A model generated the notes under the pieces. It searched no databases, had not been told where the DNA came from, and saw only the letters and a program-made list of their open reading frames with translations. A program made the position numbers and the translations under genes. From NCBI GenBank assembly GCA_038087875.1, contig CM075995.1, positions 7,814,001 to 7,878,000 on the forward strand: a DNA stretch of 64,000 nucleotides, written 5' to 3'. Below, in pieces: positions 1,182 through 62,902 of this stretch. This stretch comes from Malacoraja senta. Lineage: Eukaryota. The stretch's first letter is position 1, and each line of letters starts with the position of its first letter.

Positions 1182-1365
1182 AAGATAGACACAAAATGCC
1201 GCAGTAACTCAGCTGGACGGGCAGCATCTCTGGAGAGAAGGAATGAGCGGGTGACGTCTCGAGTCGAGACCCTTCTTCAGAGTGGAGAACGGAGCAGTGT
1301 CTCGACCTGAAATGTCACCCATTCCTTCTAGTTACTCCAGCATTGTGTGTCCATCTTCGGTGTAC
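1182..1365. mobile_element. Short Penelope-terminus-derived repeat, partial foldback
   Basis: aagatagacacaaaatg...gcagcatctctggagagaagg...gagacccttcttcag followed by a partial reverse-complement copy; same sequence as the end of the GIY-YIG-bearing element at 62492-62902. Confidence 0.7.
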
Positions 1366-1469
1366 AACTTCACCAATGGAGTCTGGACAAAGTTTACACA
1401 ATAATCTACAGTATCACTGTCAAAGTCATTCATTTTCAGGATTTGGAAGGATGGACAGTTATATTCCAA

Positions 1470-1672
1470 AGATAGACACAAAATGCTGGAGTAAGTCAGC
1501 GGGACAGGCAGCATCTCTGGAGAGAAGGGATGGATGAAGTTTCGGGTCAAGACCCTTCTTCAAAAACATCACCCATTCTTTCTCTCCAGAGATGCTGCCT
1601 GTCCCGCTGAGTTACGCCAGCATTTTGTGTCTTACCTTCAGTGTAAACGAGCATAGGCAGTTCCCTCCTACG
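1470..1672. mobile_element. Short Penelope-terminus-derived repeat forming an inverted repeat in the adnp2 3' UTR
   Basis: Arms 1474-1537 and 1569-1632 are reverse complements with few mismatches. Confidence 0.8.
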
Positions 1673-1682
1673 CACGCCATAA

Positions 1683-4373
1683 CTAACTTCTATTCGACTT
1701 TCTGCTTGTTCCCCCAAAATCAAATCTGAGCCCGTGCTTTACTTTCTTCAGTTCCGACATGTTGAATCCCAAAAGCACAAAAGGTTTGTCCTTCATTGCT
1801 TTCAAGCACGACCCCTGTTTTGTGTCAAAGACGAGGGCAACGTCGTTCTTCTTCAGGGACAGGACTGAAGATAACACCTCGATCTCCTTATTGCTCGGGT
1901 AAGGTTGCTTGTGAAAGTAGTCGTTGAGGAACAGCTTTCGTTCTTTGTTGGGGCGATGGCCAAATCCTTTCGGGACTAGCGCCAGCACAGTAGATGGATC
2001 CGATGAGGGCAAGGAGTGTGAAGCATTCGCCGTGTTACTCCGTGCTAAAGGAGAGACTTTAGAATAGGCAGCGGCTACATCAGTCTTTAATCGTTTTGAA
2101 GCCGGTGGCGCTAAATTTTTCCCGTCGCCATTTGAAACCAGTTCAGTCCCCAATTCGCCAATTTCTGAAATCGCACGCTTTGACAGTCCAGTGTCTTTTG
2201 GCAAAGTAACACTTTGCATTTTATTAAGGCCCCTGCAGCGAAATAGATGGAGAGAGATTGTTGATGCCGCCATGTGGTCTGTGTACACGCCGTGACAGTA
2301 AATGCACTTAAACGAGGGTATCTTCAGTAGCGGATGAAGAATAGGTGCCACGTGATGTTTCTCGTGCAAATGCTTTTCGTATTTCGAACCCCGAAAGTGA
2401 TTCCAACAGAAAGGACACTCTGAGCTTGGTGGCCCCGGGGTTACAGCCTCTGCAATGATGGCTCCCTCCTCTGCCTTGTGCCTGCACACCTCAATTACGA
2501 AAGGCGCGTGAGGAGAGGACATTTTGCTTGGAATGAGGGTCAGGTGGATGTCGTTGGGACCCATTTCATCTTCTGGCAACGTGATAGTCAAGTTAAAGCC
2601 GCCTTCGTTGATTTGTTTGGAGGCCGAGGCTCCGTCTTTGCCGTTTTCCACCACTTCGAACCTGAGCCCGGCGTGCGAGGACTTTGTGTGCGCGGAAAAC
2701 TTGGCCAGGTCGTGGAAGGTCTGCGAGCAGAACAAGCAGGTCAGGCCGTGCATGAGCAGATGGCAAAACAGGAGGTTTTCGTGCACGTAGCACTCACAGA
2801 ACAGACACTTGCAGATGTGGGCGCCGGCCCTCTGTAGGTAGTTGGCGCAGGCCACGATCTTGTCAGGCTTGTTGTTGCTGTTGGCCCTGTGCGCGGTGGC
2901 GATGTGGTTGTCGTAGGCGCTGAGCGGCAACAGCGAGCTGCAGAGGGAGCAGCTCTTCCACTGTTGGGCTCTGGGGACGGGGGGCGCCGGCGGCAGATTT
3001 AGAGCAACCGCGAGCATCGACTGCGCCGGTTCCCGCTCCACGGCGGCAACTGCGATCGCCGACGGCTCTTCGCGTGGTTGTCGGGGAACAGACGGCGCTT
3101 TACAATTCGCCCGGTCGATATGAAGTGGCACTTGCATGGCGGAGAGCACGCCCGGCTTGTTGTTGCTGGTCGCAGTGGAAGCAACAGGCAAGGAGAACTG
3201 AACTGGAGTTAGGGTGTAGGCAGGTAAGCCGTTGACGTCTTTCCTGCTCTGAATTAGATGCTTGACCGTCGGCAAATTGGCTGAAGGGCCATTCCCTGGA
3301 ATACTGGGCCTCGCCGCCCGGTCAATGGTCAATCCCTGCGACATGAGGAACGCCCGAGGGAGCACCGGACCCCCCCCTCTGATAGCAAGGTTGCTCTGGC
3401 CCATCTGGAAGGTGGCAGGCACCAGGTTAACCTGGCCTGGCTTTGGGAGTCCGCCAGAGCTGGTCACTGGGATCAGACTGCTCGGCAGAGCCTGGAAAGC
3501 GTTCAACGCCGGAGTCATTGAGCCCAAAGACACCGGACTGAAATTCGGAGGGAGCGCCAACACTTTCAGCGACCGCTGTGCAGGCACCGGTGCCGCGCTG
3601 GAGATCACCGGGAGAGACGGCGTGGTGTTCGCCGTTGAGGCGGCCTGCTTCACGCACGCGAGCACCGGGCCTTTCAGTCTGATGCTAAGAGCCGACCCGG
3701 CGGCCCGAGGTCCGGAGAGCATTTGCCCAGCTAGCCTGATGCTGCACGGCGACAGCGCGGAGGTCTTGCTTGTCTGGGGCTTGGGAGCGATGTGGGGCCT
3801 GGGTTTCAGCTCCGATACGTGTCCAACCATTGCCTTGACTGGCCCGTCCACTTCTTTGTGCTTTTCCAGAACGTGATAGAGCAAAGCATCGTGGGTGGCC
3901 ATTTTCACGTGGCATCCTTTGCAAAAATAGTTGTACACCAAGAGATCTACCTGGTCCACGATCTGACCGGTGTAGTTGTTGACGAAGCTGCCAAAATGGG
4001 ACAGAAAGACATGTTTCTTTATGCCGTACACAGAGACATCTTTGTAGGAACATACCCTGCAATAGTAAACTGGCTTGACTAGATTTGACATTTTGCCCTG
4101 GTACGTCTTGGTTTGTGTCTGCCGCCCTACTTGATCGGCATTGTCGTGGTTGGCAGCGCCGTGCGCTCTCCGACTATCAGCATGGAATATTCTGCCGTGC
4201 TTCTTCACCAGCTTGGGGTGTGCGGTAAATGTGCAGTTAGGGCAGCCGACCAACATCTCCATATCCATCTCATCTTCGTGATAACAGCGCATGTGACTCT
4301 TATAAGCGTTAATAAACTTTGTAGAGAAGTCACACAGGCTACAGCAAAATGGTTTCGTTCGGTAGGGGTGGAC
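1683..4373 (-). CDS. adnp2: ADNP homeobox protein 2, last coding exon (897 codons including TAG)
   Basis: Acceptor ttttggttgcag|GTC at 4375-4374, phase 0. Encodes YRTKPFCCSLCDFSTK...HEDEMDMEMLVGCPNC, further C2H2 fingers (e.g. FKCIYCHGVY...ISLHLFRCR), homeodomain KERKLFLNDYFHKQPYPSNKEIE and PFVLLGFNMSELKKVKH, then ends. The short C-terminus and HEDE..E..CPNC fit ADNP2 rather than ADNP. Confidence 0.93.
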   Translation of the reverse strand, partial: VHPYRTKPFCCSLCDFSTKFINAYKSHMRCYHEDEMDMEMLVGCPNCTFTAHPKLVKKHGRIFHADSRRAHGAANHDNADQVGRQTQTKTYQGKMSNLVKPVYYCRVCSYKDVSVYGIKKHVFLSHFGSFVNNYTGQIVDQVDLLVYNYFCKGCHVKMATHDALLYHVLEKHKEVDGPVKAMVGHVSELKPRPHIAPKPQTSKTSALSPCSIRLAGQMLSGPRAAGSALSIRLKGPVLACVKQAASTANTTPSLPVISSAAPVPAQRSLKVLALPPNFSPVSLGSMTPALNAFQALPSSLIPVTSSGGLPKPGQVNLVPATFQMGQSNLAIRGGGPVLPRAFLMSQGLTIDRAARPSIPGNGPSANLPTVKHLIQSRKDVNGLPAYTLTPVQFSLPVASTATSNNKPGVLSAMQVPLHIDRANCKAPSVPRQPREEPSAIAVAAVEREPAQSMLAVALNLPPAPPVPRAQQWKSCSLCSSLLPLSAYDNHIATAHRANSNNKPDKIVACANYLQRAGAHICKCLFCECYVHENLLFCHLLMHGLTCLFCSQTFHDLAKFSAHTKSSHAGLRFEVVENGKDGASASKQINEGGFNLTITLPEDEMGPNDIHLTLIPSKMSSPHAPFVIEVCRHKAEEGAIIAEAVTPGPPSSECPFCWNHFRGSKYEKHLHEKHHVAPILHPLLKIPSFKCIYCHGVYTDHMAASTISLHLFRCRGLNKMQSVTLPKDTGLSKRAISEIGELGTELVSNGDGKNLAPPASKRLKTDVAAAYSKVSPLARSNTANASHSLPSSDPSTVLALVPKGFGHRPNKERKLFLNDYFHKQPYPSNKEIEVLSSVLSLKKNDVALVFDTKQGSCLKAMKDKPFVLLGFNMSELKKVKHGLRFDFGGTSRKSNRS

Positions 4374-4469
4374 CTGCAACCAAAATAAAATGCAACAGAA
4401 TAGTTTTACATGGAGCACATTTCGTGAGCTTCTCCCCATCAGCCATCAGGCTATTAAACACTACAACCT

Positions 4470-21030: not shown

Positions 21031-22439
21031 AAGAAGCAGATTAATCCCAACCAAAGGCTATTCTACTGTCACAATAGGCCACTTGTATATTTTGCAGCGT
21101 ACAGAAATTCTTTTGGGAGCATTTCCTCAGATTACAGAGCAGTATTTTCCCCCCAGCCACTATAAAATTCAGTTAGCCTTCAATTTCTTGGAGTAATTGA
21201 TTGGAGCTCAAGTGTGAATAGAAGATCAACTAAAATAAGAGAGAGCGGGTAAAAGTGGTGAATGATGGGGGGTTTTGGTCGCAGCACATTTAATCAAAAG
21301 CTTCCTTTGCCAATAAGCCTAAGTGCAATTACACTCCCAACCCTGATTTTCTCAAATAACTCTTTATCAAATGGCACTTCCCATTTAACAAAGCCGCGCT
21401 TGTCCCCATTAATTATATAGCCATTTTTCCCAGCATCAATTAATTTTAGTCCCGGATTATAAATCCACACACTCTCCATTTATAGACTGATTGCTGGATC
21501 CATCCTTCTTCTCCACTGGCACCAATACAAGCTTGGAAAATTGAGTCTTTGCAATTTCATTCCTCACTTTCCTCAGCATTCTAAGATGGATTCATTCAGG
21601 CCCAAGTGACTTCTCTTTTGCAAATTCGGACAATCTTTCAAGTGCATCCTCTGTTATTCTATACAATTGAATCTCTAGGTATTCCATTATAACTTTAGCA
21701 GGATCTACTTTTATCTTTGTTGAAAAAGACCCTTTTTGTCTGTTGAAAAAGCTCCTTAGGCACTTCAGGCAAACACTTACTTTAGCTGGATTAATTTTTT
21801 AGTCTACACGGTTCCAACCAAAGAATAAGAACAAGGAACTGCTGAGTTACTCCAGCTTTTCGTGTCAACCTACAATACTGTATGCCTTTGGATTATCTTC
21901 TATACCTGCCACTGACTACGACCAAATACATTTAATCAAAACAGATTATGTACAGGGTACAACATTGCTACTCATAAAGTCAAATGCAGAACAGTGAAGC
22001 ACAGGGACAGGCCCTTCAGCCCTCAATGTCCGTGTCGAACATGATGCCGTTAACTCATCTCCTCTATCTACATGTAATCCATATCCCCTACACTGCCTGA
22101 AAAATCTTGTGCAAATCGTATACAAATCTCGCCAAAACTAAACGCCACATTACAAAAGTCACTGGATTTCAAATATAACCAATTTTAGTTGATTTTTTTT
22201 TTAGCAACAATGGGGATAGAGTACAGGTCTAGTGGAGATCAAATAAAGAATGGTGGTGCCTGATTATAACAAAAGGAGTCACAAAGTGTAAAACATTTAG
22301 GTTTAGAAAGTGTTTGTGTTTCCATAAATAATGTCAGGTTATTTAGTTTCAAACCTGATTTAATGACTGTTGAGGATGCAACGTTACAGATATCGCAGCA
22401 GTCTCCAAAACCCCCGTTATCATCAGCACGCCCTGGCTG

Positions 22440-40997: not shown

Positions 40998-41774
40998 CTG
41001 CAGTTCGAACAAAACCGGTAAAAAAAAATATTCACTGTGGAGGAAGGAACTGCAGCTGCTGCTTTTAAACCGAAGAAAGACACAAAAAGCTGGAGTAACT
41101 CAGCGGGACAGACAGCATCGCTGGAGAAAAGGAATAGGTGACGTTTCAGGTCTGAAAAAAGGTCTCGACTTTCCTAAGACCAAGAGTCAAGAGTGTTTTA
41201 TTGCCATTGGTCCCGGATGGGACAATGAAATTCTTACCTGCTGCAGCACAACAGAATATGTGAATATGTAAACATCGTACATGATGGGGGAAGAGAAAAA
41301 GAAAAAGTTCAATAAATAACAAATATAATGCAATAATAATATAATCTTTTGCAGTTCAGAGCTCAGAGCTTATTCGTTGTTGTGTTCAATAGCCTGATGG
41401 CTGTTAAAGTGATTAGTGATAGGAGCAGAATTAGGCCATTCAGCCCATCGAGTCTACTCCACCATTCTATCATGGCTGATCTATCTCTTCCTCCTAACCC
41501 CATTCTCCTGCCTTCACCCCATAACCTCTGACACCCGTACTATTCAAGAATCTATCTATCTCTGCCTTAAAAATATCCACTGACTTGGCCTCCACATCTT
41601 TCTGTGGCAAAGGATTCCAAAAATTCACCACCCTCTGACTAAAGAAATTTCTCCTCATTTCCTTCCTACAAGAACATCCTTTTTATTCTGAGGCTGTGAC
41701 CTCGAGTCCCGGACTCTCCCACGAGTGGAAACATTCTCCCCATATCCACTCTGTCCATCTTTAAAACATTCATT

Positions 41775-44700: not shown

Positions 44701-46325
44701 GCAGTCACTGGAAGTATCTTGAGAGCAGTCAGTGTTACTGTCGAAGAAGTACTGAAGGTACTGTTGTGTTTGAAGGTGGACAAATCTCCAGGGCCAGATC
44801 AGATATATTCGAGGACATTGCGGGAAACTAGAGAGGAAATTGCGGGAACCTTGGTTGAAATTTACGAGTCGTCCTTAGATACAGGAGAGGTGCCGGAAGA
44901 CTGGAGGGTGGCAAATGTTATACCTCTTTTCAAGAAGGGCTGCAGGGAAAATGCTGGGAACTATAGGCCGGTGAGCTGAACATCTGTAGTTGGTAAGTTA
45001 CTAGAGAGTATTCTGAGGGAAAGGTTTTACAGGCATTTGGATGGGCAAGGGCTGATTAGGGACAGTCAGCATGATTTTGTACGAGGGAGGTCGTATCTCA
45101 CAAATCTGAATTATTTTTTTGAAGACGTGACTAAAATGGTCAATGAGGGCAAAGCTGTAGATGTTGTGTACATGGACTTTCGACAAGGTTCCGCATGGTT
45201 GGCTGCTCTGGAAGGTTAGATCGCATGGGATCCAAGAACAGATAGCTAAATGGATAGCAAATTGGCTCCATGGAAGGAAACAGAGGGTGATGGTGGAAGG
45301 TTGCTTCTCAGAATGGAGGCCTGTGATTAGTGGTGGTGCCTCAGGGTTCGGTGTTGGGCCCGTCACTGTTCGTCATCTACATCAATGATTTGGATGAGAA
45401 CACACAGGGCAAGATTAGCAAGTTTGCTGATGATACAATAGTTAGTGGTTTTGCAGATAGTGAAGATGGTTGTGAAAGATTGCAGCAGGATCTGGATCGA
45501 TTGGCCAGGTAGGCGGAGGAATGGTTGATGGAATTTAATACAGAAAAGTGTGAGGTGTTGCATTTTGGGATGTCGAACAAGGGCAGGACCTTCACAGTAA
45601 ATGGTTGGCCTCTAGGTAGTGTTGTAGAGCAGAGGGATCTAGGAGTACAAGTGCATGGTTCCTTGAAGATCGAGTCGCAGGTGGATAGGGTGGTCAAAAA
45701 GGCTTTTGGCACTTTGGCCTTCATCAATCAGAGTATTGTGTATAGAAGTTGGGAGGTCATATTGCAGTTGTATAAGACGTGGTGAGAACCGCATTTAGAA
45801 TATTGTGCTCAGTTCAGGGCACCATGTTATAGGAAAGATATTGTCAAGCTTGAAAGGGTTCAGAAAAGATGTACGAGGAAGTTGCCAGGACTAGAGGGTG
45901 TGAGCTATAGGGACAGGTTGAGTAGGCTGGGTCTCTATTCCATGGAGCGCAGGAGAATGAGGGGTGATCTTATGGAGGTGTACAAAATCATGAGAGGAAT
46001 AGATTAGGGTAGATGCACAGAGTCTCTTGCCTTGAGTAGGAAAATCAAGGACCAGAGGACATAAGTTCAAGGTGAAGGGGAAAAGATTTAATAGGAATCC
46101 GAGGGGTAACTTTTTCACACAGAGGGTGGTGGGTGTACGGAACAAGCTGCCAGAGGAGGTAGTTGAGGCTGGGACTATCCCATCGTTTAAGAAACAGTTA
46201 GATAGGTACATGGATAGTGACAGGTTTGGAGGTATATGGACCAAGCACAGGCAAGTGTAGCTGGTCAGTGTGGGCAAGTTGGGCTGAAGGACTTGTTTCC
46301 ACTCTGCGTCACTCTATGACTCTAA
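41775..46325 (+). mobile_element. Near full-length CR1 LINE (SGNH-esterase ORF1 + APE/RT ORF2), disrupted, with nested insertions at ~41886-42257 and ~42704-43110
   Basis: ALVVGDSIVRG and VVVHVGTKDIG (esterase); [39 protein letters not shown]; tail ctatgact. Confidence 0.92.
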
Positions 46326-46344
46326 TCTAATTATATTCTACCTA

Positions 46345-46815
46345 TCGGTGGTGGCCAGTGCCATCTTCTTCGCTGCCGTGTGCTGGGGCAGCAGGGCGAA
46401 GTCCACGGACGTCAATCGGATTAACAATCTCATCAGGAAGGCTGGCTCCGTCCTGGGGGCAGAGTTGGATTCATGGGAGGTTGGTCTTGGAGGGGAGGAT
46501 GCTCCTCAAACTGCGGAGCATCTTGGACAATACAGCTCACCCCCTCCATGACACACTGGTCAACCTGAGGAGCATCTTCAGCAACAGACTGGTTCCACCA
46601 AGATGCAGCACAGAACATCACAGGAGATCCTTCTTCCCTGTGGCTAACAAACTGTACAACTCATCGCCCTTCTGTCATGGGGTAGAATGAGACTGACTCC
46701 CCTCCCCCCAATCTTTACACATCCCCAAAGCCTTTCCGCTAGTCACTTTAATTTCATATTTCACGTACTTTATGTTTATATGACTGTTGGCAGATCAATT
46801 TCCCTCCTGGGATAT
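46345..46815 (+). mobile_element. Rex1/Babar-type LINE 3' fragment
   Basis: VVASAIFFAAVCWG...LIRKAGSVLG; ILDNTAHPLH...RRSFFPVANKLYN. Confidence 0.75.
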
Positions 46816-46957
46816 TTAAGAATATCAGAATAAGGGGTAGGCCATTTGGAACGGAGATGAGGAAAAACGTTTTCACCCAGAGAGTTGTGAACCTGTGGAA
46901 TTCTCTGCCTCAGAAGGCAGTGAAAGCCGATTCTCTGGTGCTTACAAGAGAGAGTTA

Positions 46958-47175
46958 AGGGCCTGTCCCACTTGGCGATTTTTTCGGCGACTGCCGGCAT
47001 CATTGACTGACGTATCAGGTCACCGAAAAATTTGCGGCGTGACGATGCGCGGTGTTTTTTCAAGTGTCGCAACATTTTTTTGTCGCCGCTGGATTTTGAA
47101 ATGTTCAAAATCTTTTGGCGCCATTGATATGCGCCGGCAGTCGCCGAAAAAAAATCGCCAAGTGGGACAGGTCCT
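46958..47175. mobile_element. PIF/Harbinger-type MITE inside a CR1 3' fragment (46820-47330)
   Basis: TIRs agggcctgtcccacttggcgattt / aaatcgccaagtgggacaggtcct; TTA at 46955-46957 and 47176-47178. Confidence 0.9.
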
Positions 47176-47624
47176 TTAGATAGAGTTCTTAAAGATAGTG
47201 GAGTCATGGGATATGGGGAGAAGGCAGGAACGGGGTACTGATTGTGGAAGATCAGCCATGATCACAGTGAATGGTGGTGCTGGTTCGAAGGGCCGAATGG
47301 CCTACTCCTTCACGTATTGTCTATTGTCTATAAAGTTCTATCGAATCGTATAAGATATCAATGACAAAAAAACAATTATCAATAGTGAAAAACAAAATAA
47401 ATTAAGTGGCGAGTTTCCAAACGGCCAGGGAGATGGTGGGAGGTGGGAGTGGTTTGGCAGGTCATCCCATTCACTTTCTGTATACAACATCATCTGTGGC
47501 CGGCTGCTCAGGGAATTTCAACTGAGCACTTGGAATTTTGTCCGGATTATAGGGGGGGGGGGGGGGGAGGGAAGCGGACCTTGAGTTACCGGAGGGAGAA
47601 AAAAATTGGTGTAGAAAGGAACCG

Positions 47625-48755
47625 TTTGAGACCACACCTGGAGTATTCTGTACAGTTTTGGTCTCCCAATTTGAGGAAGGACATTCTTGCTATTGAGGGA
47701 GTGCAGCATAGGTTCACGAGGTTAATTCCCAAAATGGTGGCACTGTCATATGTTGATAGAATGGAGCCGCTGGGCTTGTATACTCTGGAATTTAGAAGGA
47801 TGAGAGGGGATCTTATTGAAACATATAATAGAAATAGACAATAGGTGCAGGAGTAGGCCATTCGGCCCTTTGAGCCAGCACCGCCATTCAATGTGATCAT
47901 GGCTGATCATTCCCAATCAGTACCCCATTCCTGCCTTCTCCCCATATCCCCTGACTCCGCTATTTTTAAGAGCCCTATCTAGCTCTCTCTTGAAACATCC
48001 AGAGAACCTGCCTCCACCGCCCTCTGAGGCAGAGAATTCCACAGGCTATTCCACAGATTATTAAGTTTGGACCCGCTAGAGGCAGGAAACACGTTCCCGA
48101 TGTTGGGGGAGTCCAGAACCAGGGGCCACAGTTTAAGAATAAAGGGTAAGCCATTTAGAACGGAGATGAGGAAATACTTTTTCACACAGAAAGTGGTGAG
48201 TCTGTGGAATTCTCTGCCTCAGAGAGCGGCGGAGGCAGGTTCTTTGGATGCTTTCAAGTGAGAGTTAGATAGAGCTCTTAAAGATAGCGGAGTCAAGGGA
48301 TATGGGAAGAAGGCAGGAACGGGGTACTGATTGGGGATGATCAGCCATGATCACATTGAATGGCGGTGCTGGCTTGAAGGGCCGAATGGCCTACCTCTGC
48401 ACCTATTGTCTATTGTTTCTGGAGCCCAGCCTCTTGCCCTGATCTTAGTTTAGAGACACAGCGCGGAAACAGGCCCTTCAGCCCACCGAGTCCGTGCCGA
48501 CCAGCGGTCCCCGCACATTAAGACTATCCTACACACACTAGGGACAATGTACAATTATACCAAGCCAATTAACCTACAAACCTGTACATTTTGGAGTGTG
48601 GGAGGAAACCGAAGATCTCGGAGAAAATCCACGCGGTCACAGGGAGAAGGTACGAACTCCGTACAGACAGCACCCGTAGTCGGGTTCGAACCCGGGTCTC
48701 TGGCGCTGCAAGGGCTTTAAGTCAGCAACTCTACAGCTGCGCCACCGTGATGCCC
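47625..48755. mobile_element. CR1 (+) with a nested inverted CR1 tail (~47828-48053), followed by an HE1-like SINE (-, 48445-48755)
   Basis: Host CR1 'gaaacatata|...|agattattaag' resumes after the nested piece. Confidence 0.8.
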
Positions 48756-49355
48756 ACAATCTCTGCATTATTAGAAGATAGACACAAAATGCTGGAGCAA
48801 ACTCAGCGGGACAGGCATCATCTCTGCAGGGAAGGAATGGGTGACCGCTGCCTGTCCCGCTGAGTTACTCCAACATTTTGTGTCCATCTTCGATTTTAAC
48901 CAGCATCTGCAGTTCCTTCCTACACATTTTATCTGCATTATTAGACATAGTTCATAAAGAATTTAAGCTGAACTGTCATCAACATGCAAAAGAAGTTACA
49001 GGAGTTTATGAAATGTGCAGAAAGGAACTGTTGATGCTGGTTTACACTGAAGAGAGACACAGAGTGCTGGAGAAATTCAGCGGGTCAGGCAGCATCTCTG
49101 GAGAGAAGGAATGGGTGACGTTTCTGGTCGGACTTGATCAGTCATTATTGAATGACTCGATAGGCTGAATGGCCTAATTCTACTCCTATAACTTGTGAAC
49201 TTGGAACCCTTCTTCAGACTGAAAGTAAAGGGGGAGAGGGGGGTGGGGTAACTGGAGGTAGGAAAAGGTCAGAACAAATCAGGGCCAGCAACAGATGATC
49301 AAGGATAGGTGGAGCCCATAATGGCCCATTGTTGGCTGTGGAGAGGTGTACTATT

Positions 49356-49700
49356 GGGGGTACAGATGGCGCAATGGGCTAAGTGTTCGGCTGGCAACCG
49401 GAAGGTAGCCGGTTCGAATCCCGCTTGGAGTGCATACTGTCGTTGTGTCCTTGGGCAAGACACTTCACCCACCTTTGCCTGCGTGTGAATGTGTGTGAGT
49501 GATTGGTGGTGGTCGGAGGGGCCGTAGGCGCAGATTAGCAGCCACGCTTCCGTCAGTCTGCCCCAGGGCAGCTGTGGCTACAGAAGTAGCTCACCACCAC
49601 CGAGTGTGACTGAGGAGTGAATGAATAATGCGATGTAAAGCGCCTTGAGTATTAGAAAGGCGCTATATAAATCCCATCCATTATTATTATTATTATTATT
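49356..49700 (+). mobile_element. tRNA-derived SINE of a second family with L2-type tail
   Basis: A-box TGGCGCAATGG, B-box GGTTCGAATCC, CORE-like gtgtccttgggcaagacact, stem-loop agcgcct...aggcgct, (ATT)n tail, ACTAT on both flanks. Confidence 0.85.
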
Positions 49701-51198
49701 ACTATAGGGATCAGTGGGAGAACCCTCGCTGTTATCTCTACTAAAGGTCTGCATATGAATTTAAGTACTATGATTACTATGTTCCCAGATGACATAAAAA
49801 TGGGAGATGGTGTTCATACTGTGGCTTCAGCCACTGATTCATATTGATGAGTTTAGACTTTAGAGATACGGTGTGGAAACAGGCCATTCGCCCCATCAAG
49901 TCCATGCCGACCTGCGATCGATCACCCCTTACATTAACACTATCCTACACACTAGGGACAATTTACAGAAGCCAATTAACCTACAAACCTGTACGTCTTT
50001 GGAATGTGGGAGGAAACCGGAGCACCCGTGTGATCACAGGGAGAACGTACAAACTCCGCACAGACAGCATCCGAAGTCAGGATCGAAGCCGGGTCTCTGG
50101 CGCTGTGGGGCAGCAACTCTACCGCTGTGTGAAACATGACTTCTTAGAATGGAAGGAAGCAGTATCTTCGTTGCCTGAAATTTATACACAGGTATAACTG
50201 CTAATAAATGAGCAGCATACAGCAATTAATGTCATAAAAGGCAGCAACGCTACCGCTGCACCAATGTGCCACTGTTGGTAAAATGGGCACAGCAGTGCAG
50301 ATGGAATTTAATTCTGAAAAAAAGAGTGTGATTCATTTTTCAGAGGATTCATTAGGCTTGCAGAAACACAAAGGACGATACATGTCCAAGGATCTCTTAA
50401 GGCAGTGGCAGGTAGCTAGTATTCCCTTTATCATGTACTGCATCTATACACAGTGGACGAATCATAGATACATAGAAAATAGGCGCAGAAGTAGGCCATT
50501 TGGCCCCTTCGAGCCAGCACTGCCTTTCAATATGATCGTGGCTGATCATCCTGAATCAGTACCCCGTTCCTGCTTTTTCCCCATATCCCTTGTTTCCGAC
50601 AGCCCTAAGAGCTAAATCTAACTCTCTCTTGAAATTATCCAGTGAATCGGGCTCCACTGCCTTCTGTGGCAGAGAATTCCACAGATTCACAACTTTCTGC
50701 GTGAAAATGTTTTCCCTCATCTCAGTCCTAAATGGCCTACCCCTTACTCTTAAATTGTGTGACCCCTGGTTCTGGACTCCCCCAACATCGGGAAATAATT
50801 TCCTGCATGGAGCCTGTTCAATCCCTTAAAAATTTGATATGTTTATATAATATATCCTCTCATCCTTCTAGATTCCAGTGACTACAAGCCTAGTCGATCC
50901 ATTCTTTCATCATATGTACATCTTAGGCTCAATTGTAATCGATTGTAAATGTTGTCTTTCCGTTGACAGGTTAGCACGCGACAAAAGCTTTTCACTGTAC
51001 CTCCGCACACATGTCAATGAAAACTAAACTGAAACTAAATATTATTGAGTTTAGTTTATTGTCACGTGCAGCGATATACGGTGAAAAGCTTTTGTTGCTT
51101 GCTATCCAGTCGGCGGAGAGACAAGGTCACTGCTGCTGTACTGTGGGCAGTTCCAGTCACTACATTCTGAAAATTATTTGATTATACTGGAAGGGCTG

Positions 51199-51415
51199 CA
51201 AAGGAGATTCATCCGAAAATTGTGTAGGAAGGAACTGCAGATGCTGGTTTAAACCGAAGATAGGCACAAAATGCTGGTGTAACTCGGTGGGACAGGCAGC
51301 ATCTCTGGAGCGAAGGAATTCCTTCCCTGAGTTACTCCAGCATTTTGTGCCTATCTTCGGTTTAAACCAGCATCTGCAGTTCCTTCCTGCACAATTTCCG
51401 GATGAATCTCCTTTG
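51199..51415. repeat. Foldback with 87-bp arms (Penelope terminus plus extra flank)
   Basis: 51199-51285 and 51329-51415 are reverse complements with 3 mismatches by eye. Confidence 0.9.
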
Positions 51416-51992
51416 TACTTCCTGCGGCAGCTGAGGAAGCACAATCTCCCACAGGCAATGATGGAGCAATTCTACACGGCCATCGTAGAGTCTGTTCTCA
51501 CCTTCTCCATCATGGTCTGGTATGGCTCAGCCACCAAGCACGACATCCGGAGGCTGCAGCGAATCGGCCGATCAGCTGAGAAGGTTATTGGCTGCAACCT
51601 TCCCTCCATTGATGAACTGTACACTGCAAGGGCCAGGAAGCGAGAGGGCAAGATCATCTCTGACCTCTCTCATCCTGGCCACAAACTCTTTGAATCACTT
51701 CCCTCTGGAAGGCGACTCCGGACTGTCAAAGCTGCCACAGCCAGACATAAAACCAGCTTTTTTCCACGAGTAATAGCTCTACTCAATAACCAAAAATCTG
51801 TAGCCTCCTTTTGCTCTGGTGTTTTATGTAATTCACATGTTTAATCGATAATGTTTTATTATTAATGTTTAATGTTTTATGTGTCATTCCTAACTGTCAC
51901 TGTATGTCATGTTGTCACTTGCGGGCGGAGCACCAAGGCAAATTCCTTGTATGTGAATACTTGGCCAATAAACTTTTTCATTCATTGATTCA
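51413..51992 (+). mobile_element. Rex1/Babar-type LINE 3' fragment
   Basis: LYFLRQLRK...FYTAIVESVLTFSIMVWYG...LPSGRRLR...SFFPRVIALLN, followed by 3' UTR with aataaa and (tcat)n. Confidence 0.85.
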
Positions 51993-52400
51993 TTTTGTGT
52001 CTATCTTCATCAGAAAAATGTCTGGTTGGAGCATTTACAAGGAAAGATTGGATAGGCTGGGTTTGTGTCTCTTGAGGTGAGGTTTAAAAAAAAATGTAGT
52101 GCACATAGATAGGGTAAATAATAATACTTTACCCCCAAGTATATAACCAGGGTGTATAACCAAAGTGCTGGAGTAACTCTGAGAGTCAGGCAGCATCGCT
52201 GGAGAACATGGATAGGTGACGTTTCGGGTTGGGTAGTTCAAGAAAGCCACCAATAGAAATATACTGTGTAGGAAGGAACTGCAGATGCTGGTTTAAACCG
52301 AAGATAGACACAAAATGCTGGAGTAACTCAGCAGGACAGGCAGCGGCTATGGAGAGAAGGAATGGGTGACGTTTTGGGTCGAGACCCTTCTTCTACTCAC

Positions 52401-52472
52401 AGCTATTTTCTCCATTATTGCAGCTTTTCCCTGGAAAGGTTGTCCTTCCCATGTTAAGCACGAACAGTCGCT
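52401..52472 (-). CDS. nutf2l: Nuclear transport factor 2-like, coding exon 2 (SDCSCLTWEGQPFQGKAAIMEKIA)
   Basis: tttttccacttccag| acceptor, GCT|gtgagt donor, 72 nt, phase 0/0; NTF2 motif SCLTWEGQ.FQGKAAI.EK. Confidence 0.95.
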
Positions 52473-52597
52473 CTGGAAGTGGAAAAATTATCGCAAATTT
52501 AAGCGGATGTTTAAAGTCTTCAGACAGAAAAATCACCAGGCACACCAAGTTTGTTGTAACAGCATCTCTTACGCTTTCAAGTGCGAGAAATCGGATA

Positions 52598-53530
52598 GAG
52601 TCATAGGGCGATACCATGGGGAAACAGGCCCTTCGGCCCAACTTGCCCACGCCGATCAACATAGAAACATAGAAAAATAGGTGCAGGAGTAGGTCATTCG
52701 GCCCTTCGAGCCAGCACCGCCATTCAATGTGATCTTGGCTGATCATCCAAAATCACTACCCAGGTCCTACTTTTTCCCCCATATCCCATGATTCCTTTCG
52801 CCTTAAGAGCTAAATCTAACTCTCTCTTGAAAACATCCAGTGAATTGGCCTCCACTGCCTTCTGTGGCAGAGAATTCCACAGATTCACAACTCTCTGGGT
52901 GAAGAAATTTTTCCTAATTTCAGTCCTAAATGGCTTACCCCTTATTCTTAAACTGTGACCCCTGGTTCCGGACTCCCCCAACATCGGGAACATTTTTCCT
53001 GCATCTAGCCTAATAGGAGCAGAATTAGGCCATTCGGCCCATCAAGTCTACTCCGCCATTCAATCGTGGCTGATCTATCTCTCCCTCTTCACCCCAATCT
53101 CCTGCCTTTCCATAACCCCAGACACCCGTACTAATCAAGAATCTATCTCTGCTGTAAAAATATCCATTGACTTGGCCTCCACAGCCTTCTGTGGCAATGA
53201 ATTCCCCAGATTCACCACCCTCTGACCAAAGAAATTCCTCCTCATCCCCTTCCTAACGGAACGTCCTTTAATTCTGAGGCTGTGACCTCTGGTCTTGGCT
53301 TCTCCCACTAGTGGAAACATCCTCTCCACATCCACTCTATCCAGGCCTTTTACAACTCGGTAAGTTTCAATGAGGTTCCCCCTCATCCTTCTAAACTCCA
53401 GCGAGTACAGGCCCAGTGCTGTCAAACGCTCATCATATATGAACCCAACTCATACCTGGGATCATTCTCGGAAACCCCCTCTCCAGCGCCAGCACATCCT
53501 TCCTCAGATATGGGGCCCAAAATTGTTCAC
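52598..53530 (-). mobile_element. Three tandem CR1 3' fragments filling a nutf2-like intron
   Basis: Successive CR1 tails at about 52598, 52660 and 53012. Confidence 0.85.
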
Positions 53531-53568
53531 CGTACACCAGTTACAACTGCAAAACTGTGCAGACTTAC

Positions 53569-53667
53569 ATATAGAGTGCCGAGCTGAGTTCGGTCTCGAT
53601 CAAACTGTTGATAATAGTGCTGCACAAAACCTCTGCCGATCTGGTCCCACAATGGTTGTTGAGCCAT
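53569..53667 (-). CDS. nutf2l: Nuclear transport factor 2-like, first coding exon ([33 protein letters not shown])
   Basis: AAA ATG G Kozak context at 53667; donor TAT|gtaagt; upstream acceptor ttacag| gives exon start 53696 (29 nt of 5' UTR). The four exons total 384 nt = 127 aa, the canonical NTF2 length. Confidence 0.95.
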
Positions 53668-53781
53668 TTTGCTATCCAATAGTGAAAGAAACCGTCCTGT
53701 AACAGAGGTGTTAAAGTATAATTATGTTTTCAACAATTCATTCGGGACATTTCTGCTTCCTCTCCTTCGAGCCAATCAATT

Positions 53782-57034: not shown

Positions 57035-57420
57035 TAAAATGCTGGAGTAACCCCAGCGGGACAGACAGCATCTCTGGATAGAAGGAATGGGTGATGTTTT
57101 GGGTCGAGAACCTTCTTTGGACTGAAGTCAGGAGAGCGGGGGATCAGAGATAAGGAAGTGTGAGGTGTGGAAACGAAACAAAGGGGTAGTTCAAGGAAAA
57201 TGTTGAATAGATCGTTGCTAGTTGGGAGAAGGTAACAACAACAAAGCAAAGAGATAAAATGTAATCGGAGACAGTCAGACTGGTCGGAAAACTGGGAAGG
57301 GGTGGGGGGGATGGCGAGAGAGGGATAGCAAGGGGTGCTTGAAGTTAGAGAAGTCAATGTTCATATCGGTGCACAAGCGAAACATGAGGTGCTGTTCTGA
57401 GCACGAGGTGGAGCTGCTGC
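57035..57420 (-). mobile_element. Penelope-like element 3' fragment
   Basis: EQHLMFRL...MNIDFSNFK GIY-YIG end followed by the terminal repeat. Confidence 0.75.
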
Positions 57421-57930: not shown

Positions 57931-58589
57931 GGGATCACACACACAGTGTGCAGAATGCACATACTGAGCATCTGGAATAGACAGACATTATATACAGATA
58001 TATATTTAATTCTCCCTCTCTATATATATATATGCACACAAGAGAATATATATAGGTACACAAAAATGCTGGAGAAACTCAGCGGGTGCAGCAGCATCTA
58101 TGGAGCGAAGGAAATAGGTAACGTTTCGGGCCGAAACCCTTCTTCAGAGAAAATATATATATATGCACATATATATAGAGAGAGAGACCAACATGCACAT
58201 ATGCACGCACACACTAATTGACATTAACTGACACTAAGAAATTAATATTGAATTGTTAAACTTGCTATTCTGTTATACTGCTTACAGCTGCAAGAATTGT
58301 AGCAATCAATAAAGGGCTATCGGTCTATTGCGAGTATATGTACAGGGGCATATCTATCCATGCACTGTATACTTGTATTTATATTTATGCATTTTAAATA
58401 TGTATGTTATGTTTTATACTTTGGCAATATAACGATGTATTTTATCATGCCAATAACGTTTTTATTAAATTGAAATTGAAATTGAATTGAGAAAATTATA
58501 TATCTGTATATGAGGTAGACAAAAAATGCTGGAAAAAACTCAGCGGGTGAAGCAGCATCCTTGGAGAGGAGAAATATAATAGTATATAA

Positions 58590-59795: not shown

Positions 59796-59977
59796 GAAAG
59801 GAATTACTCCAGAACTTTGTCTTTTTTTTAAACCAACATCTGCAGATGCCGCCCAACACAGGCGACTATTTGCGTGCGACCCACAGAAGCAGATCTGCAA
59901 ACTCACATTACAATCGCTCCACACTCTTAAATCTAGTTTCCCACAGCAACACTTCCTACTTTAACTATGATCTTCTT

Positions 59978-62070
59978 AGAAACATAGAAAATAGGTGCTG
60001 GAGGAGGCCATTCGGCCCTTCGAGCCAGCACCACCATTCATTGTGATCATGGCTGATTGTCCCCAATCAATAACCCGTGCCTGCCTTCTCCCCATATCCC
60101 TTGATTCCACCAGCCCCTTGAGCTCTATCTAACTCTCTCTTAAATCCATCCAGTGATTTGGCCTCCACTGCCCTCTGTGGCAGGGAATTCCACAAATTCA
60201 CAACTCTCTGGGTGAAATTTTTTTTCTCACCTCAGTCTTAAATGGCCTCCCCTTTATTCTAAGACTGTGGCCCCTGGTTCTGGACTCGCCCAACATTGGG
60301 AACATTTTTCCTGCATCTAGCTTGTCCAGTCCTTTTATAATTTTAAATGTTTCTATAAGATCCCCCCTCATCCTTCTAAACTCCAGTGAATACAAGCCCA
60401 GTCTTTTCAATCTTTCCTCATATGACAGTCCCGCCATCCCAGGGATCAATCTCGTGAACCTACGCTGCACTGCCTCAATCACAAGGATGTCCTTCCTCAA
60501 ATTAGGAGACCAAAACTGTACACAATACTCCAGATGTGGTCTTACCAGAGCCCTATACAACTGCAGAAGAACCTCTCTACTCCTATACTGAAATCCTCTT
60601 GTTATGAAGGCCTACATTCCATTAGCTTTCTTCACTGCCTGCCGTACCTGCACGCCTTCTTAAACTCCTTTCAGATCTGTCCTTCCCAGCTGTTATCAGA
60701 TAACTGAATTAAAGATAGCGGAGTCAGGGGATATGGTGAGAAGGCAGGAACGGGGGTACTGATTGTGGATGATCAGCCATGATCACATTAAATGGCAGTG
60801 CTGGCTCGAGGGGGCCGAAAGGCCTACTCCCGCACCTATTGTCTATTGAATCATCCTACCGCAACCAGAGAGCAGTGCTGAACTACTATCTACCTCTTTG
60901 ATGTTCCTTTGGCTATCCTTGACCGGACTTTACCTTGCACTAAACGTTATTCCCTTATCATGTATCGGTACAATGTAAATGGATTGATTGTAATCATGTA
61001 TTGTCTTTCAGCTGACTGGTTAGCACGCAACAAAAGCTTTTCACTGTACCTCGGTAAACATGACAATAAACTAAACTGAACTGAACAGTTCATTGTGTTG
61101 ATTTGTGGATGTGGCATGGATGGCACTCAGATTGAACATTCTCCAAAGTCCAACGCGAGCTGTTTCATTATCAAAAGGAAATTATAATCACAACTGGGCC
61201 CAGTGGGCTCATTGGTCGATATCATTACTCTTCACCTCATAGAAACATAGACAATAAGTGCAAGAGTAGGCCATTCAGCCCTTCGAGCCAGCTGAATATG
61301 ATCATGGCTGATCACCCAAAATCAGTTCCCCGTTCCTGCTTTTTCCCCATATCCCACGATTCCGTTAGCCCTAAGAGCTCGATCTAACTCTCTCTTGAAA
61401 ACATCCAGTGAATTGGCCTCCACTGCATTCAGTGGCAGACAATTTCACAGATTCACAACTCTCTGGGTGAAGACGTTTTTCCTCATCTCAGTCCTAAATG
61501 TCCTTATTCTTAAACTCAGCGGGTGAGGCAGCATCTATGGAGAGAAGCTGCCTATTCCTTCTCTCCGTAGATGCTGCCTCACCCGCTGAGTTTCTCCAAC
61601 ATTTTTTGTCTACCCTCGATTTTTTCAACATCTGCAGTTCTCTCTTAAACACCTTACTCTTAAACTGTGTGACCCCTGGTTCTGGACATCCCCAACATGG
61701 GGAACATTTTTTCTGCATCTAGCCTGTCCTATCCTTTAAGAATGTTATGTTTCTATAAGATCCCCTCTCGTCACAAACGCTCATCATAGGTTAATCTACT
61801 AATTCCTGGGATCATTCTTGTAAACCTCCTCTGGACCCTCTCCAGAGCCAGCACAGCCTTCATCCAATATGGTGCCCAAAATTGCTCCAAATATTCCAAA
61901 TGCGGCCTGACCAGCGCCTTATAGAGCATCAGCGTTACATCCGTTTTTGTTCACAAGCCCTCTTGAAATAAATGCTGGCATTGCGTTTGCTTTCTTTACT
62001 ACCGATTCGACTCGCAGATTAACCTTTTGTGAGTCCTCCACCAGCACTCCCAAGTCCCTTTGCACCTCAT
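59978..62070. mobile_element. CR1 fragments (59978-60655 -, 60710-60848 +, 61240-62070 -), the last with a nested Penelope-terminus foldback
   Basis: 59978-60655 is very similar to 7153-7820. The nested foldback is flanked by cctta(t/c)tcttaaact at 61502-61516 and 61652-61666. Confidence 0.83.
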
Positions 62071-62491
62071 GATGGAACCAGTCATTGTCTCACCAGTATC
62101 ATACAGTACTGAGACAAATTAAGTTAAGTCTTAAATTGTTGGAGTCAGGTGGTGCATGATCCTGCTAGAATATTGCCGCTTTCTGCATCTGGATTCTCCT
62201 GAAAGTTCTCAATAACATGAATGAGTTTATGAGCTAGGGATTCCCAAGAATCAGAAAATACATTGCATGCTTTTAAAGAAGCTTTGAGGAAATAGTCTAT
62301 TTCCCTCCGAAACTAGAGGTATGCGTTTTCAAACTTTTATACCTCTTGCCTGATGGGAGAGAGGGGAAGAGGAAGTGACCAGGGTGAGACTGGTCCTTGA
62401 TTATGCTGGTGAAGTGTAGATGGAGTCAATGGAAGGGAGGTTGGTTTGTGTGCGATGAACAGAGCAACATCCACAACCTTAAAAGTAGGAC

Positions 62492-62902
62492 CGGTCGGTC
62501 GGTCCGCAATAACCAACCTGACCTCCCGGTGGCTCAGCACTTCAACTCCCCCTCCCATTCCGTATCTGACCTCTCTGTCCTGGGTCTCCTCCATGGCCAC
62601 AGCGAGCAACACCGGAAATTGGAGGAAATGCACCTCATATTCCGCTTGGGCAGTCTACATCCTGGGGGCATGAACATTGAATTCTCCCAATTCTGCTAGC
62701 CCTTGCTGTCCCCTCCCCTTCATCAGCCCTCTGGTTGTCTCATCCCCTCCCCCAGCCCTCGGGCTCCTCCTCCGCCTTTTTTCCTTTCTTCTCCCCACCC
62801 CCTATCAGTCTGAAGAAGGGTTTCGGCCCGAACCGTTGCCTATTTCCTTCGCTCCATAGATGCTGCTGCACCCGCTGAGTTTCTCCAGCATTTTTGTGTA
62901 CT
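62492..62902 (+). mobile_element. 5'-truncated Penelope-like element (GIY-YIG C-terminus + terminal repeat)
   Basis: PDLPVAQHFNSPSHS...LGLLH...RKLEEMHLIFRLGSLHPGGMNIEF*, then ctgaagaagggtttcggcccgaac; TTAAAAGTAGGAC duplicated at 62479-62491 and 62903-62915. Confidence 0.85.

What the first reader, a model, noticed from the sequence alone, without database searches (positions are those of the whole stretch)
1251..62840. Dispersed family of Penelope-derived mini-elements carrying a hammerhead-ribozyme-like core
Seen: a ~100-150-bp repeat recurs throughout the window, and many copies contain CTGAAGA-A-[GGGT..CCC stem]-GAAAC-GTH. The best preserved is on the minus strand at 58119-58147: CUGAAGA A GGGU-UUCG-GCCC GAAAC GUU. 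Degenerate copies lie near 1251, 1535, 10208, 25307, 28658, 35467, 38049, 52366 and 62810. At 62492-62902 the repeat is the direct 3' end of a GIY-YIG ORF remnant. Known: CUGANGA...GAAA...NUH is the hammerhead core, and Penelope-like elements carry minimal type I hammerheads whose palindromic stem III (here ACGU) needs dimerisation. Inference: these are non-autonomous, ribozyme-terminated mini-retroelements in at least two subfamilies (stem-II loop GGGTCTCGACCC vs GGGTTTCGGCCC), scattered through introns and a UTR of both genes. Stem I looks very short and there is an extra A after CUGAAGA, so catalytic activity is not established.
Basis: partly seen in the sequence, partly recalled or inferred. 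Interest (0 to 1): 0.7.

Follow-up and report, generated by a model that had tools for sequence, protein, structure and literature searches.

The report
Skate Penelope retroelement ends with hammerhead
The repeat is the very abundant, decayed end piece of a known kind of jumping gene (a Penelope-like element) in a skate-like fish genome; it carries the minimal self-cutting RNA motif already known from such elements, but almost every copy here has lost it, and the cut site is not where the copies begin or end.

Summary
I curated 35 segments (4.7% of the window), and all ten named positions carry a copy. Three copies run upstream into GIY-YIG endonuclease remnants whose closest named relatives are little-skate proteins; longer relatives have the Neptune/Nematis-type zinc-finger linker. 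The copies show known Penelope-like element (PLE) signatures: 5' truncation, head-to-head inverted pairs, an optional 35-nt 3' tail and 12-16-bp target duplications. The motif fits the published PLE minimal hammerhead; the extra A is a conserved feature of that class, not a defect. Stem I is only 2 bp, so no copy passes the published descriptor. Only 1 of 11 copies spanning the motif keeps core, stem II and ACGU. The core decays like its flank (14/164 vs 132/1484), and stem II shows no two-sided covariation. 'Ribozyme-terminated' is wrong: the predicted cut lies 64-103 nt before the 3' ends, and 5' ends do not pile up there. Instead 11 of 30 short segments start within -8..+3 of the core, at an initiator-like/splice-acceptor-like site. 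This suggests run-off cDNA from uncleaved RNA (inferred). Verdict: a new, abundant member of a known kind; catalysis untested.

The parts
62492..62902 (+). 5'-truncated PLE copy, subfamily B: endonuclease C-terminus (62496-62696), pyrimidine-rich 3' UTR, hammerhead-like motif (C3 at 62810; A15.1 changed to C), tail-less 3' end; target duplication 62479-62491 / 62903-62915
58055..58148 (-). Short subfamily B copy beside a TA microsatellite; the only copy with intact core, stem II and ACGU (58120-58147); starts at position 0, so it has 1 bp of stem I
37005..38131 (+). 5'-truncated subfamily A1 copy: endonuclease remnant 37005-37182, resumed 37449-37599, interrupted by the opposite-strand copy below and by another repeat (about 37600-37989), then UTR, motif (C3 at 38049) and tail-less end
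37182..37448 (-). Copy with a different upstream UTR (A2), inserted in opposite orientation into the endonuclease remnant; probable diverged 13-bp duplication (score not above null)
57036..57403 (-). 5'-truncated subfamily A1 copy: weak endonuclease remnant 57341-57403, UTR, degenerate motif (C3 at 57120), 3' end broken by another repeat
49014..49330 (-). Tailed copy with a third upstream UTR (A3), split inside stem II by another repeat (about 49131-49204); upstream limit approximate
1184..1365 (.). Inverted (3' ends outward) pair, 1283-1184 (-) and 1299-1365 (+, partial tail), downstream of the ADNP2-like stop; probable 3' UTR
1468..1672 (.). Inverted pair, 1562-1468 (-, no tail) and 1563-1672 (+, tail), about 10 nt downstream of the ADNP2-like stop codon
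10076..10239 (-). Tailed copy (core kept, ACGU lost) followed head-to-tail by a second fragment without the motif
21841..21871 (+). 3' fragment
25302..25427 (+). Tailed short copy starting at -4, inserted at the 3' tail of another repeat
25923..26027 (-). Tail-less short copy starting at about -8
26208..26371 (+). 3' end and partial tail of one copy joined to a tailed copy starting at position 0 (26240)
26643..26687 (+). Tail-only fragment
28442..28498 (+). 3' fragment
28592..28795 (.). Inverted pair (minus arm tail-less, plus arm tailed) with a 12-bp, 1-mismatch target duplication: one insertion event
28968..29011 (-). 3' fragment
30760..30905 (.). Inverted pair; arms joined at a 3-nt microhomology next to the predicted cut site
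35466..35562 (+). Tail-less short copy starting at position 0; G12 lost by CpG decay
41036..41152 (-). Tailed copy, 5'-truncated inside stem II
48774..48926 (.). Inverted pair with a 16-bp, 1-mismatch target duplication
51221..51393 (.). Near-perfect palindrome, both arms tailed, with about 23 nt of flank also duplicated in inverted form
52161..52393 (-). Tailed copy starting at +3 (52393-52265) followed by a second truncated copy (52229-52161)
58513..58575 (-). B-like 3' fragment
59801..59860 (+). Diverged tailed fragment
61513..61643 (.). B-like inverted pair with a 15-bp, 1-mismatch target duplication
1683..4445 (-). Host context: large last coding exon of an ADNP2-like gene (a further exon lies in 9864-10016)
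39243..53721 (-). Host context: span between two exons of an NTF2-domain gene; copies at 41036-52393 are intronic

Best explanation
These are 3' ends (pseudo-LTR pieces) of several subfamilies of an endonuclease-bearing Penelope-like retrotransposon of the Neptune/Nematis type that spread massively in skate-like fish. Shown: some copies continue upstream into the endonuclease gene; 3' ends fall at two sites 35 nt apart; copies form inverted pairs inserted as single events with 12-16-bp target duplications next to AT-rich DNA. From established PLE biochemistry (PMC11167929): the element's protein nicks AT-rich DNA and starts reverse transcription at two internal sites downstream of the hammerhead, which gives the tail-less and tailed ends, and it copies uncleaved RNA. 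Inferred: the short class arises when reverse transcription starts in the pseudo-LTR at the 5' end of the transcript and runs off an RNA end 0-8 nt upstream of the core (about 45%), rather than by ordinary stalling (about 30%) or from self-propagating mini-elements (about 25%). The hammerhead motif is inherited from the master elements. With a 2-bp stem I and a competing hairpin it could cleave, if at all, only as a dimer and with protein help (about 50%). In the dispersed copies it decays neutrally and should not cut host transcripts.
For: Endonuclease remnants precede 3 copies. The 67-residue remnant is 85% and 73% identical to little-skate proteins, has 529 relatives at E<=0.001 and is 58% identical to a zebra-shark RT-thumb/GIY-YIG protein. 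A CX2-5CxxC-like linker lies about 50 residues before the YIG motif in 8 of 8 long relatives checked, one with the last C lost. 3' ends: 13 of 35 at +92..+96, 15 of 35 at +122..+131, 7 elsewhere. Seven abutting inverted pairs; 4 of 23 intervals tested have target duplications scoring 10-14 against a null maximum of 9 in 300 random intervals, plus one inside a TA microsatellite that I discount. 3' flanks are 68% AT vs 54% for the window (25 ends). 5' ends: 11 of 30 short segments in a 13-nt zone at the 5' edge of the core, p=0.001. Inverted copies, optional 30-40-bp tail and short target duplications are described for PLEs in PMC8557442 and PMC3846280. The motif fits the published consensus. 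The motif-to-end module is 78-80% identical between subfamilies, while the UTR just upstream is at shuffle level, 50-55% vs null mean 55%. A zebra-shark read-through peptide keeps the motif's reading with K to M, which places a change at the variable N7 (indirect).
Against: No full-length element or PLE reverse transcriptase remnant is in the window, and no genome was available, so clade and master structure rest on relatives. Only 13 of 28 search hits with enough upstream sequence matched the linker pattern. No copy passes the published descriptor with stem I of 3 bp or more. Rfam gave no hammerhead match at E<=1. Stem II has no pair changed on both sides. Conservation of the core between subfamilies is not significant (p=0.35). 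The 5'-end pile-up rests on 30 hand-curated ends, 4 of the 11 being inversion junctions, and unknown upstream subfamilies could mimic some ends. No RNA ends could be seen, because only assembled contigs were offered.
Confidence: 0.75

Rival explanations
1. The short copies are a separate non-autonomous, SINE-like family: an internal promoter starting at the TCAGT site transcribes the 100-135-nt unit, and the PLE protein retroposes it in trans.
For: Defined 5' boundary (11 of 30 ends at -8..+3); 30 of 35 segments are short; very high abundance in related genomes (147,110 and 153,303 contigs laid in two DNA-like runs); non-autonomous PLE derivatives are known (PMC8557442; bioRxiv 10.64898/2026.07.22.740005); pLTR cis-sequences suffice for mobilisation in trans in a rotifer.
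Against: Short and endonuclease-linked copies share the same module: B copies 58148 and 62805 differ at 2 substitutions, and A copies share one majority sequence. No head-to-tail pair with two motifs was seen. A single short copy has no defined terminator.
Confidence: 0.25
2. The motif is vestigial even in the master elements: kept only as part of the sequence the RT recognises, or of the promoter or splice site, with no self-cleavage.
For: Stem I 2 bp. ViennaRNA gives stem II a probability of at most 0.01 in 6 of 6 constructs, and a hairpin pairing G9-U12 with +29..+32 dominates in 5 of 6 (0.57-0.85). The hammerhead dimer scores -1 to -6 kcal/mol against a co-fold minimum of about -30 to -32. 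No 5'-end pile-up at the cut site. In the anole PLE, ribozyme mutants insert normally and no RNA-seq ends map to the cut.
Against: All three A-to-B differences inside the motif fall on tolerated positions (loop 2, U-A to U-G in stem II, C17 to U). Published PLE hammerheads with 2-bp stem I exist (D. virilis, Culex, Oikopleura rows). The anole ribozyme cleaves once its protein is added. Nearest-neighbour folding ignores tertiary contacts, and I ran no known active minimal hammerhead as a control.
Confidence: 0.4
3. Hammerhead cleavage defines the ends of the RNA that is copied (ribozyme-terminated elements or circular retrozyme-like units).
For: Two plus arms of inverted pairs begin at +27..+30. 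Circular or tandem units are proposed for PLE hammerheads.
Against: 2 of 19 is chance level (p=0.35), and one of the two is a 3-nt microhomology junction. 16 of 35 segments reach the 5' edge of the core or run past it, so they were copied across the uncut site. 3' ends lie 64-103 nt downstream of it. No tandem array in the window.
Confidence: 0.05
4. Individual copies have been co-opted by the host, for example as ribozymes or double-stranded hairpins in the ADNP2-like 3' UTR.
For: Two inverted pairs lie just after the stop codon; the only poly(A)-like hexamer downstream is at 394. They fold at -82 and -131 kcal/mol. Contigs of three other organisms bridge their flanks, so the insertions predate those splits.
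Against: Both sense-strand motifs there are broken (C3 missing; GAAA changed) and would be trapped in the hairpins. Core decay across 30 A-type segments equals flank decay (8.5% vs 8.9%, p=1.0; non-CpG only 4.1% vs 8.7%, p=0.058, open to ascertainment bias). Shared presence only dates the insertions.
Confidence: 0.07

Closest known systems
Minimal type I hammerheads in pseudo-LTRs of metazoan PLEs (Cervera and de la Pena 2014, PMC4209133)
   Same: CUGANGA plus one extra nucleotide, G10.1-C11.1 closing pair, GAAA, palindromic 15.2-16.2 pair with no loop 3, NUH; found mostly as dispersed single motifs and opposite-strand pairs from truncated PLEs.
   Different: Stem I is 2 bp (published minimal motifs mostly 3-5 bp; descriptor minimum 3) and stem II 4 bp. 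No chondrichthyan row in the alignment rows I read. Density here is about one segment per 1.8 kb, against 4,000-9,000 motifs per genome reported for coelacanth and frog.
Neptune/Nematis-type EN+ Penelope-like elements (as defined in Craig et al. 2021, PMC8557442)
   Same: C-terminal GIY-YIG endonuclease after RT in relatives, CX2-5CxxC linker, 5' truncation, inverted 5'-truncated copy, optional 30-40-bp tail, some TA-microsatellite targets.
   Different: Only the last 67 endonuclease residues are in the window; Neptune and Nematis were not told apart (no RT tree).
Anole Poseidon element PAc (Frangieh et al. 2024, PMC11167929)
   Same: Hammerhead about 70-100 nt upstream of two 3' end sites that define a tail; AT-rich targets; no sign that the cut site defines insertion ends.
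   Different: Different clade. In PAc the ORF starts in stem II; here no conserved start codon or frame through the module was found.
Non-LTR retrozymes of animals (bioRxiv 10.64898/2026.07.22.740005; PMC7229834 seen as listing only)
   Same: Non-coding, PLE-related, type I hammerhead.
   Different: Retrozymes are tandem units with a complete hammerhead in each unit (363 bp mean in the one chondrichthyan sampled). Here copies are dispersed or inverted and nearly all motifs are broken.

Membership tests
EN+ Penelope-like elements | GIY-YIG endonuclease at the ORF C-terminus directly upstream of the 3' pseudo-LTR | tested here: met
   Remnants at 62496-62696, 37005-37158 and, weakly, 57341-57403; relatives carry RVT_1 then GIY-YIG
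EN+ Penelope-like elements | PLE-type reverse transcriptase in the same ORF | tested here: inconclusive
   None in the window; present in relatives P0063, P0116, P0152, P0154; no RT tree made
EN+ Penelope-like elements | Inverted 5'-truncated copy adjacent to the 5' end | tested here: met
   7 abutting inverted pairs, 3 with target duplications around the whole pair
EN+ Penelope-like elements | Optional 30-40-bp 3' tail, often at one end only | tested here: met
   3' ends at +92..+96 (13 of 35) and +122..+131 (15 of 35); 6 of 7 inverted pairs tailed on one arm only; tail also seen as loose-end consensus in related genomes
EN+ Penelope-like elements | Partial-tandem (pLTR-ORF-pLTR) full-length structure | not testable with these tools
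   No genome held
Neptune/Nematis clades | CX2-5CxxC linker between RT and endonuclease | tested here: inconclusive
   Outside the window's remnant; present in 8 of 8 long relatives, including the 73%-identical skate protein, and in 13 of 28 hits by a cruder pattern
PLE minimal hammerhead (min-HHR) | Core CUGANGA, extra nucleotide, GAAA and NUH | tested here: met
   Majority sequence of both subfamilies; intact in 3 of 11 spanning copies
PLE minimal hammerhead (min-HHR) | Stem II of 3-7 bp closed by G10.1-C11.1 | tested here: met
   4 bp, 94.6% of cells paired in 14 copies, one-sided changes only
PLE minimal hammerhead (min-HHR) | Palindromic 15.2-16.2 pair allowing a dimer | tested here: met
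   ACGU in both subfamilies; kept in 7 of 11 spanning copies, most losses fit CpG decay
PLE minimal hammerhead (min-HHR) | Stem I of at least 3 bp (published descriptor) | tested here: not met
   2 bp; 0 window hits at 3 bp or more, 1 at 2 bp. The same paper accepts 2-bp variants found by hand, so this is best called a 2-bp-stem variant
Hammerhead ribozyme | Self-cleavage after H17 | not testable with these tools
   No raw RNA reads offered; folding predicts a competing hairpin
Rfam hammerhead families | Covariance-model match | tested here: not met
   No hammerhead among 15 matches at E<=1
Non-LTR retrozymes | Two or more consecutive tandem units, each with a complete hammerhead | tested here: not met
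   None among 35 segments; the 3 head-to-tail neighbours have at most one motif

The most novel reading that the evidence does not exclude
The short copies are insertions of run-off ('strong-stop-like') cDNA. The PLE reverse transcriptase starts internally at +96 or +131 in the 5' pseudo-LTR of uncleaved RNA and stops at the RNA's 5' end or splice junction at the TCAGT site just before the core. A skate genome would then hold on the order of 10^5 fossil records of both RT start sites and the transcript 5' end. The 2-bp stem I would follow from that RNA end, with the ribozyme held off by a competing hairpin until splicing or protein binding changes its 5' strand.
Probability: 0.25. Interest if true: 0.6.

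Novelty: new member of a known kind. Interest (0 to 1): 0.3.

Why it matters
As it stands, it adds skates to the animals whose Penelope-like elements carry minimal hammerheads, and it names a repeat that fills nearly 5% of this window, sits in introns and probably in a 3' UTR as long hairpins. If the 5'-end pile-up holds genome-wide, the family's very high copy number would make open questions on PLE replication testable from sequence alone: where the template RNA starts, whether it is cleaved, and how inverted pairs and the one-sided tail form.

Tried and rejected
Rfam scan: no hammerhead family, only low-complexity microRNA-type hits. Pattern scans for relatives: 0 in viral contigs; 11 in metagenomes, all chance matches inside unrelated coding sequence with no similarity beyond the 20-mer. 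No genome held, so no genome-wide consensus or end map. Sequencing-run search: no RNA holder listed on record; the 14 runs guessed to be RNA are contigs, which cannot show RNA ends, strand or level. Covariation: nothing above shuffles; fold z-scores -1.5 to +0.03 for 6 stretches. An open frame through the A-type module was considered as an ORF start and rejected: no ATG in frame, and subfamily B has a 1-nt insertion that breaks it (my estimate of a chance open 44-codon frame among three is about 0.3). A peptide search with that frame gave 3 unnamed ENA proteins, further copies, no named species. Names for the unnamed protein hits could not be looked up. Lunse et al. 2017 on dimeric PLE hammerheads is not held, so its variants and species list were not seen. 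Literature searches for skate or shark PLE hammerheads found no such paper (listings only); Repbase and Dfam could not be searched, and the family is likely annotated there (recalled expectation, not checked). Earlier scan notes: nothing by sequence, place or specific words; a broad look-up listed 8 of 225 findings on other genomes, none on this family. Pfam was run on 277 of 386 candidate non-repeat ORFs for host genes.
Full report
Setting. The window is repeat-rich animal DNA (49% self-repeat) with two host genes on the minus strand: an ADNP2-like gene (last exon 1683-4445, another exon in 9864-10016) and an NTF2-domain gene (exons near 39243-39353 and 53530-53721). The best named protein relatives of the element are from the little skate, so the host is skate-like. 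No genome was available. Positions in the repeat are counted with hammerhead C3 as +1; the predicted cut follows +28.

Observation. All ten named coordinates carry a copy. A 20-nt motif has 14 matches at up to 3 mismatches against 0.01 expected. A profile HMM gave 36 hits and 0 on the reversed window. Dropping one duplicate left 35 curated segments, 2983 bases; the 30 A-type segments average 90% identity to their majority sequence. When the first 1.6 kb around the ADNP2-like stop was laid against four runs, about 147,000 and 153,000 contigs matched in the two large runs, with summed depth about 4 x 10^5 times the unique flank. The tool warns that this is not a copy number; with the local density it suggests on the order of 10^5 copies per genome (inference).

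It is the 3' end of a Penelope-like element. The insertion 62492-62902 holds the last 67 residues of an endonuclease, a pyrimidine-rich UTR, the motif and the 3' end, between 13-bp exact target duplications. The remnant is 85% and 73% identical to skate proteins and 58% to a zebra-shark protein. Longer relatives have RT then GIY-YIG, and 8 of 8 checked have the CX2-5CxxC-like linker (13 of 28 hits by a cruder pattern) that marks Neptune and Nematis in PMC8557442 (passages read). Five segments extend upstream into four UTR types that align no better than shuffles (50-55% vs mean 55%), while the motif-to-end module is 78-80% identical between subfamilies A and B, as high as the endonuclease DNA (77%). 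The module as a whole was therefore constrained in the master elements.

PLE insertion signatures. 3' ends are bimodal: 13 of 35 at +92..+96, 15 at +122..+131, 7 elsewhere (one of the 7, 62805, ends near +93 by its target duplication). The 35-nt difference matches the optional 30-40-bp tail, which in the anole element lies between two internal RT start sites (PMC11167929, parts 1-2 of the text read; supplements searched without hits). Seven pairs are inverted with 3' ends outward; 6 carry the tail on one arm only and 1 on both. Three pairs and the long B copy have 12-16-bp target duplications above the null (4 of 23 intervals; null maximum 9 in 300; a fifth, in a TA microsatellite, discounted), so a pair is one insertion. 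The same arrangement is described for rotifer PLEs (PMC3846280, passages). 3' flanks are AT-rich, 68% vs 54%.

The hammerhead motif. Both subfamilies read CUGAAGA, A, a 4-bp stem II with 4-nt loop, GAAAC, GUH. This fits the consensus of Cervera and de la Pena (PMC4209133; parts 1-2 of the text; supplement file 2 part 2 and passages; supplement file 1 not available). They list the extra nucleotide between 9 and 10.1, the G10.1-C11.1 pair and the palindromic 15.2-16.2 pair as conserved features, so the extra A counts for the identification. Stem I is 2 bp, also in the loose-end consensus from related genomes. My implementation of their descriptor finds 0 hits at 3 bp or more, 1 at 2 bp and 2 with any stem I; 50 Markov controls give 0, 0 and 0.02. 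The paper accepts 2-bp variants found by hand (D. virilis; Culex and Oikopleura rows).

Against present function of the copies: of 11 copies spanning +1..+28, 3 keep the core and 1 keeps core, stem II and ACGU. The core mutates at 14/164 and the flank at 132/1484 (p=1.0); G12 and the ACGU centre are CpG sites and decay fastest. Without CpG sites the core is lower, 6/145 vs 125/1439, p=0.058, which may reflect anchoring on the core. Between subfamilies, 0 of 11 core positions and 11 of 77 others differ (p=0.35); the three differences within the motif are all tolerated ones. Stem II has no two-sided change in 14 copies. Folding gives stem II at most 0.01 probability in 6 of 6 constructs; in 5 of 6 a hairpin pairing G9-U12 with +29..+32 dominates and extends over the core. 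The hammerhead dimer lies about 26-29 kcal/mol above the co-fold minimum (no active-ribozyme control, no tertiary terms). A zebra-shark read-through peptide keeps the motif's reading with a change that maps to N7, indirect support for a conserved core.

Not ribozyme-terminated. The cut site is 64-68 nt from the short ends and about 103 nt from tailed ends. Sixteen of 35 segments reach the 5' edge of the core or beyond, so they were copied from uncut RNA, and only 2 of 19 internal 5' ends lie at +27..+31 (p=0.35). This agrees with the anole element, where unprocessed RNA is the main substrate and cleavage needs the protein.

An unexplained regularity. Eleven of the 30 short segments begin at -8..+3 (p=0.001 against uniform truncation); 4 of these are inversion junctions. 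The upstream DNA of these 11 is unrelated host or other-repeat sequence. The site, TCAGT then CT, fits the initiator consensus YYANWYY (recalled); a similar TCACT initiator is noted in a rotifer pLTR. In long copies it is also preceded by a 73-93% pyrimidine tract ending in CAG, like a splice acceptor; in D. virilis an intron ends at the 5' side of stem I (intron and promoter passages in PMC2377424). The simplest mechanism (inferred) is run-off: internal RT initiation at +96 or +131 in the 5' pseudo-LTR, ending at the RNA's 5' end. A self-propagating short family or an RT barrier would give a similar pattern, and one window cannot separate them.

Host side. The pairs at 1184-1365 and 1468-1672 lie after the ADNP2-like stop, with the only poly(A)-like hexamer at 394, so they are probably in the 3' UTR. 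Contigs of three other organisms bridge their flanks, so they predate those splits. Their sense-strand motifs are broken and would be trapped in hairpins of -82 and -131 kcal/mol.

Novelty. PLE hammerheads, dispersed single motifs and opposite-strand pairs are published (PMC4209133; review passages PMC6765202). A 2026 preprint reports tandem retrozymes in one chondrichthyan (parts 1-2 and passages read; its supplements were not seen and may list this family). My searches found no paper on skate or shark PLE hammerheads, but Lunse et al. 2017 was not available and repeat libraries were not searchable. Verdict: new member of a known kind, a 2-bp-stem-I variant of unproven activity. Interest 0.3; the run-off reading would deserve 0.6 if confirmed (probability 0.25).

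Noticed in passing
window 51198-51416: The palindromic pair has tails on both arms, and about 23 nt of flanking DNA is duplicated in inverted orientation beyond both tails, like an inverted target duplication or a fold-back event.
   Followed up: partly
inverted pairs at 1184, 1468, 28592, 30760, 48774, 61513: In all 6 asymmetric pairs the tailed arm is on the plus strand, antisense to both host genes (p=0.03, post hoc); solo tailed copies are 4 plus and 4 minus. Probably chance.
   Followed up: partly
window 1184-1672: Two long inverted-repeat hairpins in the probable 3' UTR of the ADNP2-like gene, shared with other skate-like organisms; candidates for A-to-I editing, like inverted Alu pairs (analogy recalled).
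   Followed up: partly
window 37005-38131: Nested insertions: one PLE copy inserted in opposite orientation into the endonuclease-coding end of another, which is also split by a different repeat.
   Followed up: yes
window 25250-25301 and 35410-35465: Two short copies sit at the 3' microsatellite-like tail of the same other repeat family, a possible target preference.
   Followed up: no
P0001, P0002, P0003, P0151: Database protein models fuse this endonuclease end or the element's UTR to unrelated domains (a LINE RT, DUF4518, a GPCR) or read through into the hammerhead: probably annotation artefacts or exonisation.
   Followed up: no
window 7139-8740, 12513-14178, 15066-18462, 43728-46100: Several decayed LINE (CR1/L2-like by appearance) fragments with RT and endonuclease-like ORFs, and other high-copy repeats D1-D5, D8-D12.
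   Followed up: no
window 31424-31777 (+): ORF resembling a Tc1/mariner transposase fragment by eye; no Pfam match at E<=0.005.
   Followed up: partly
window about 34340-34540: A 200-base assembly gap (N run).
   Followed up: no
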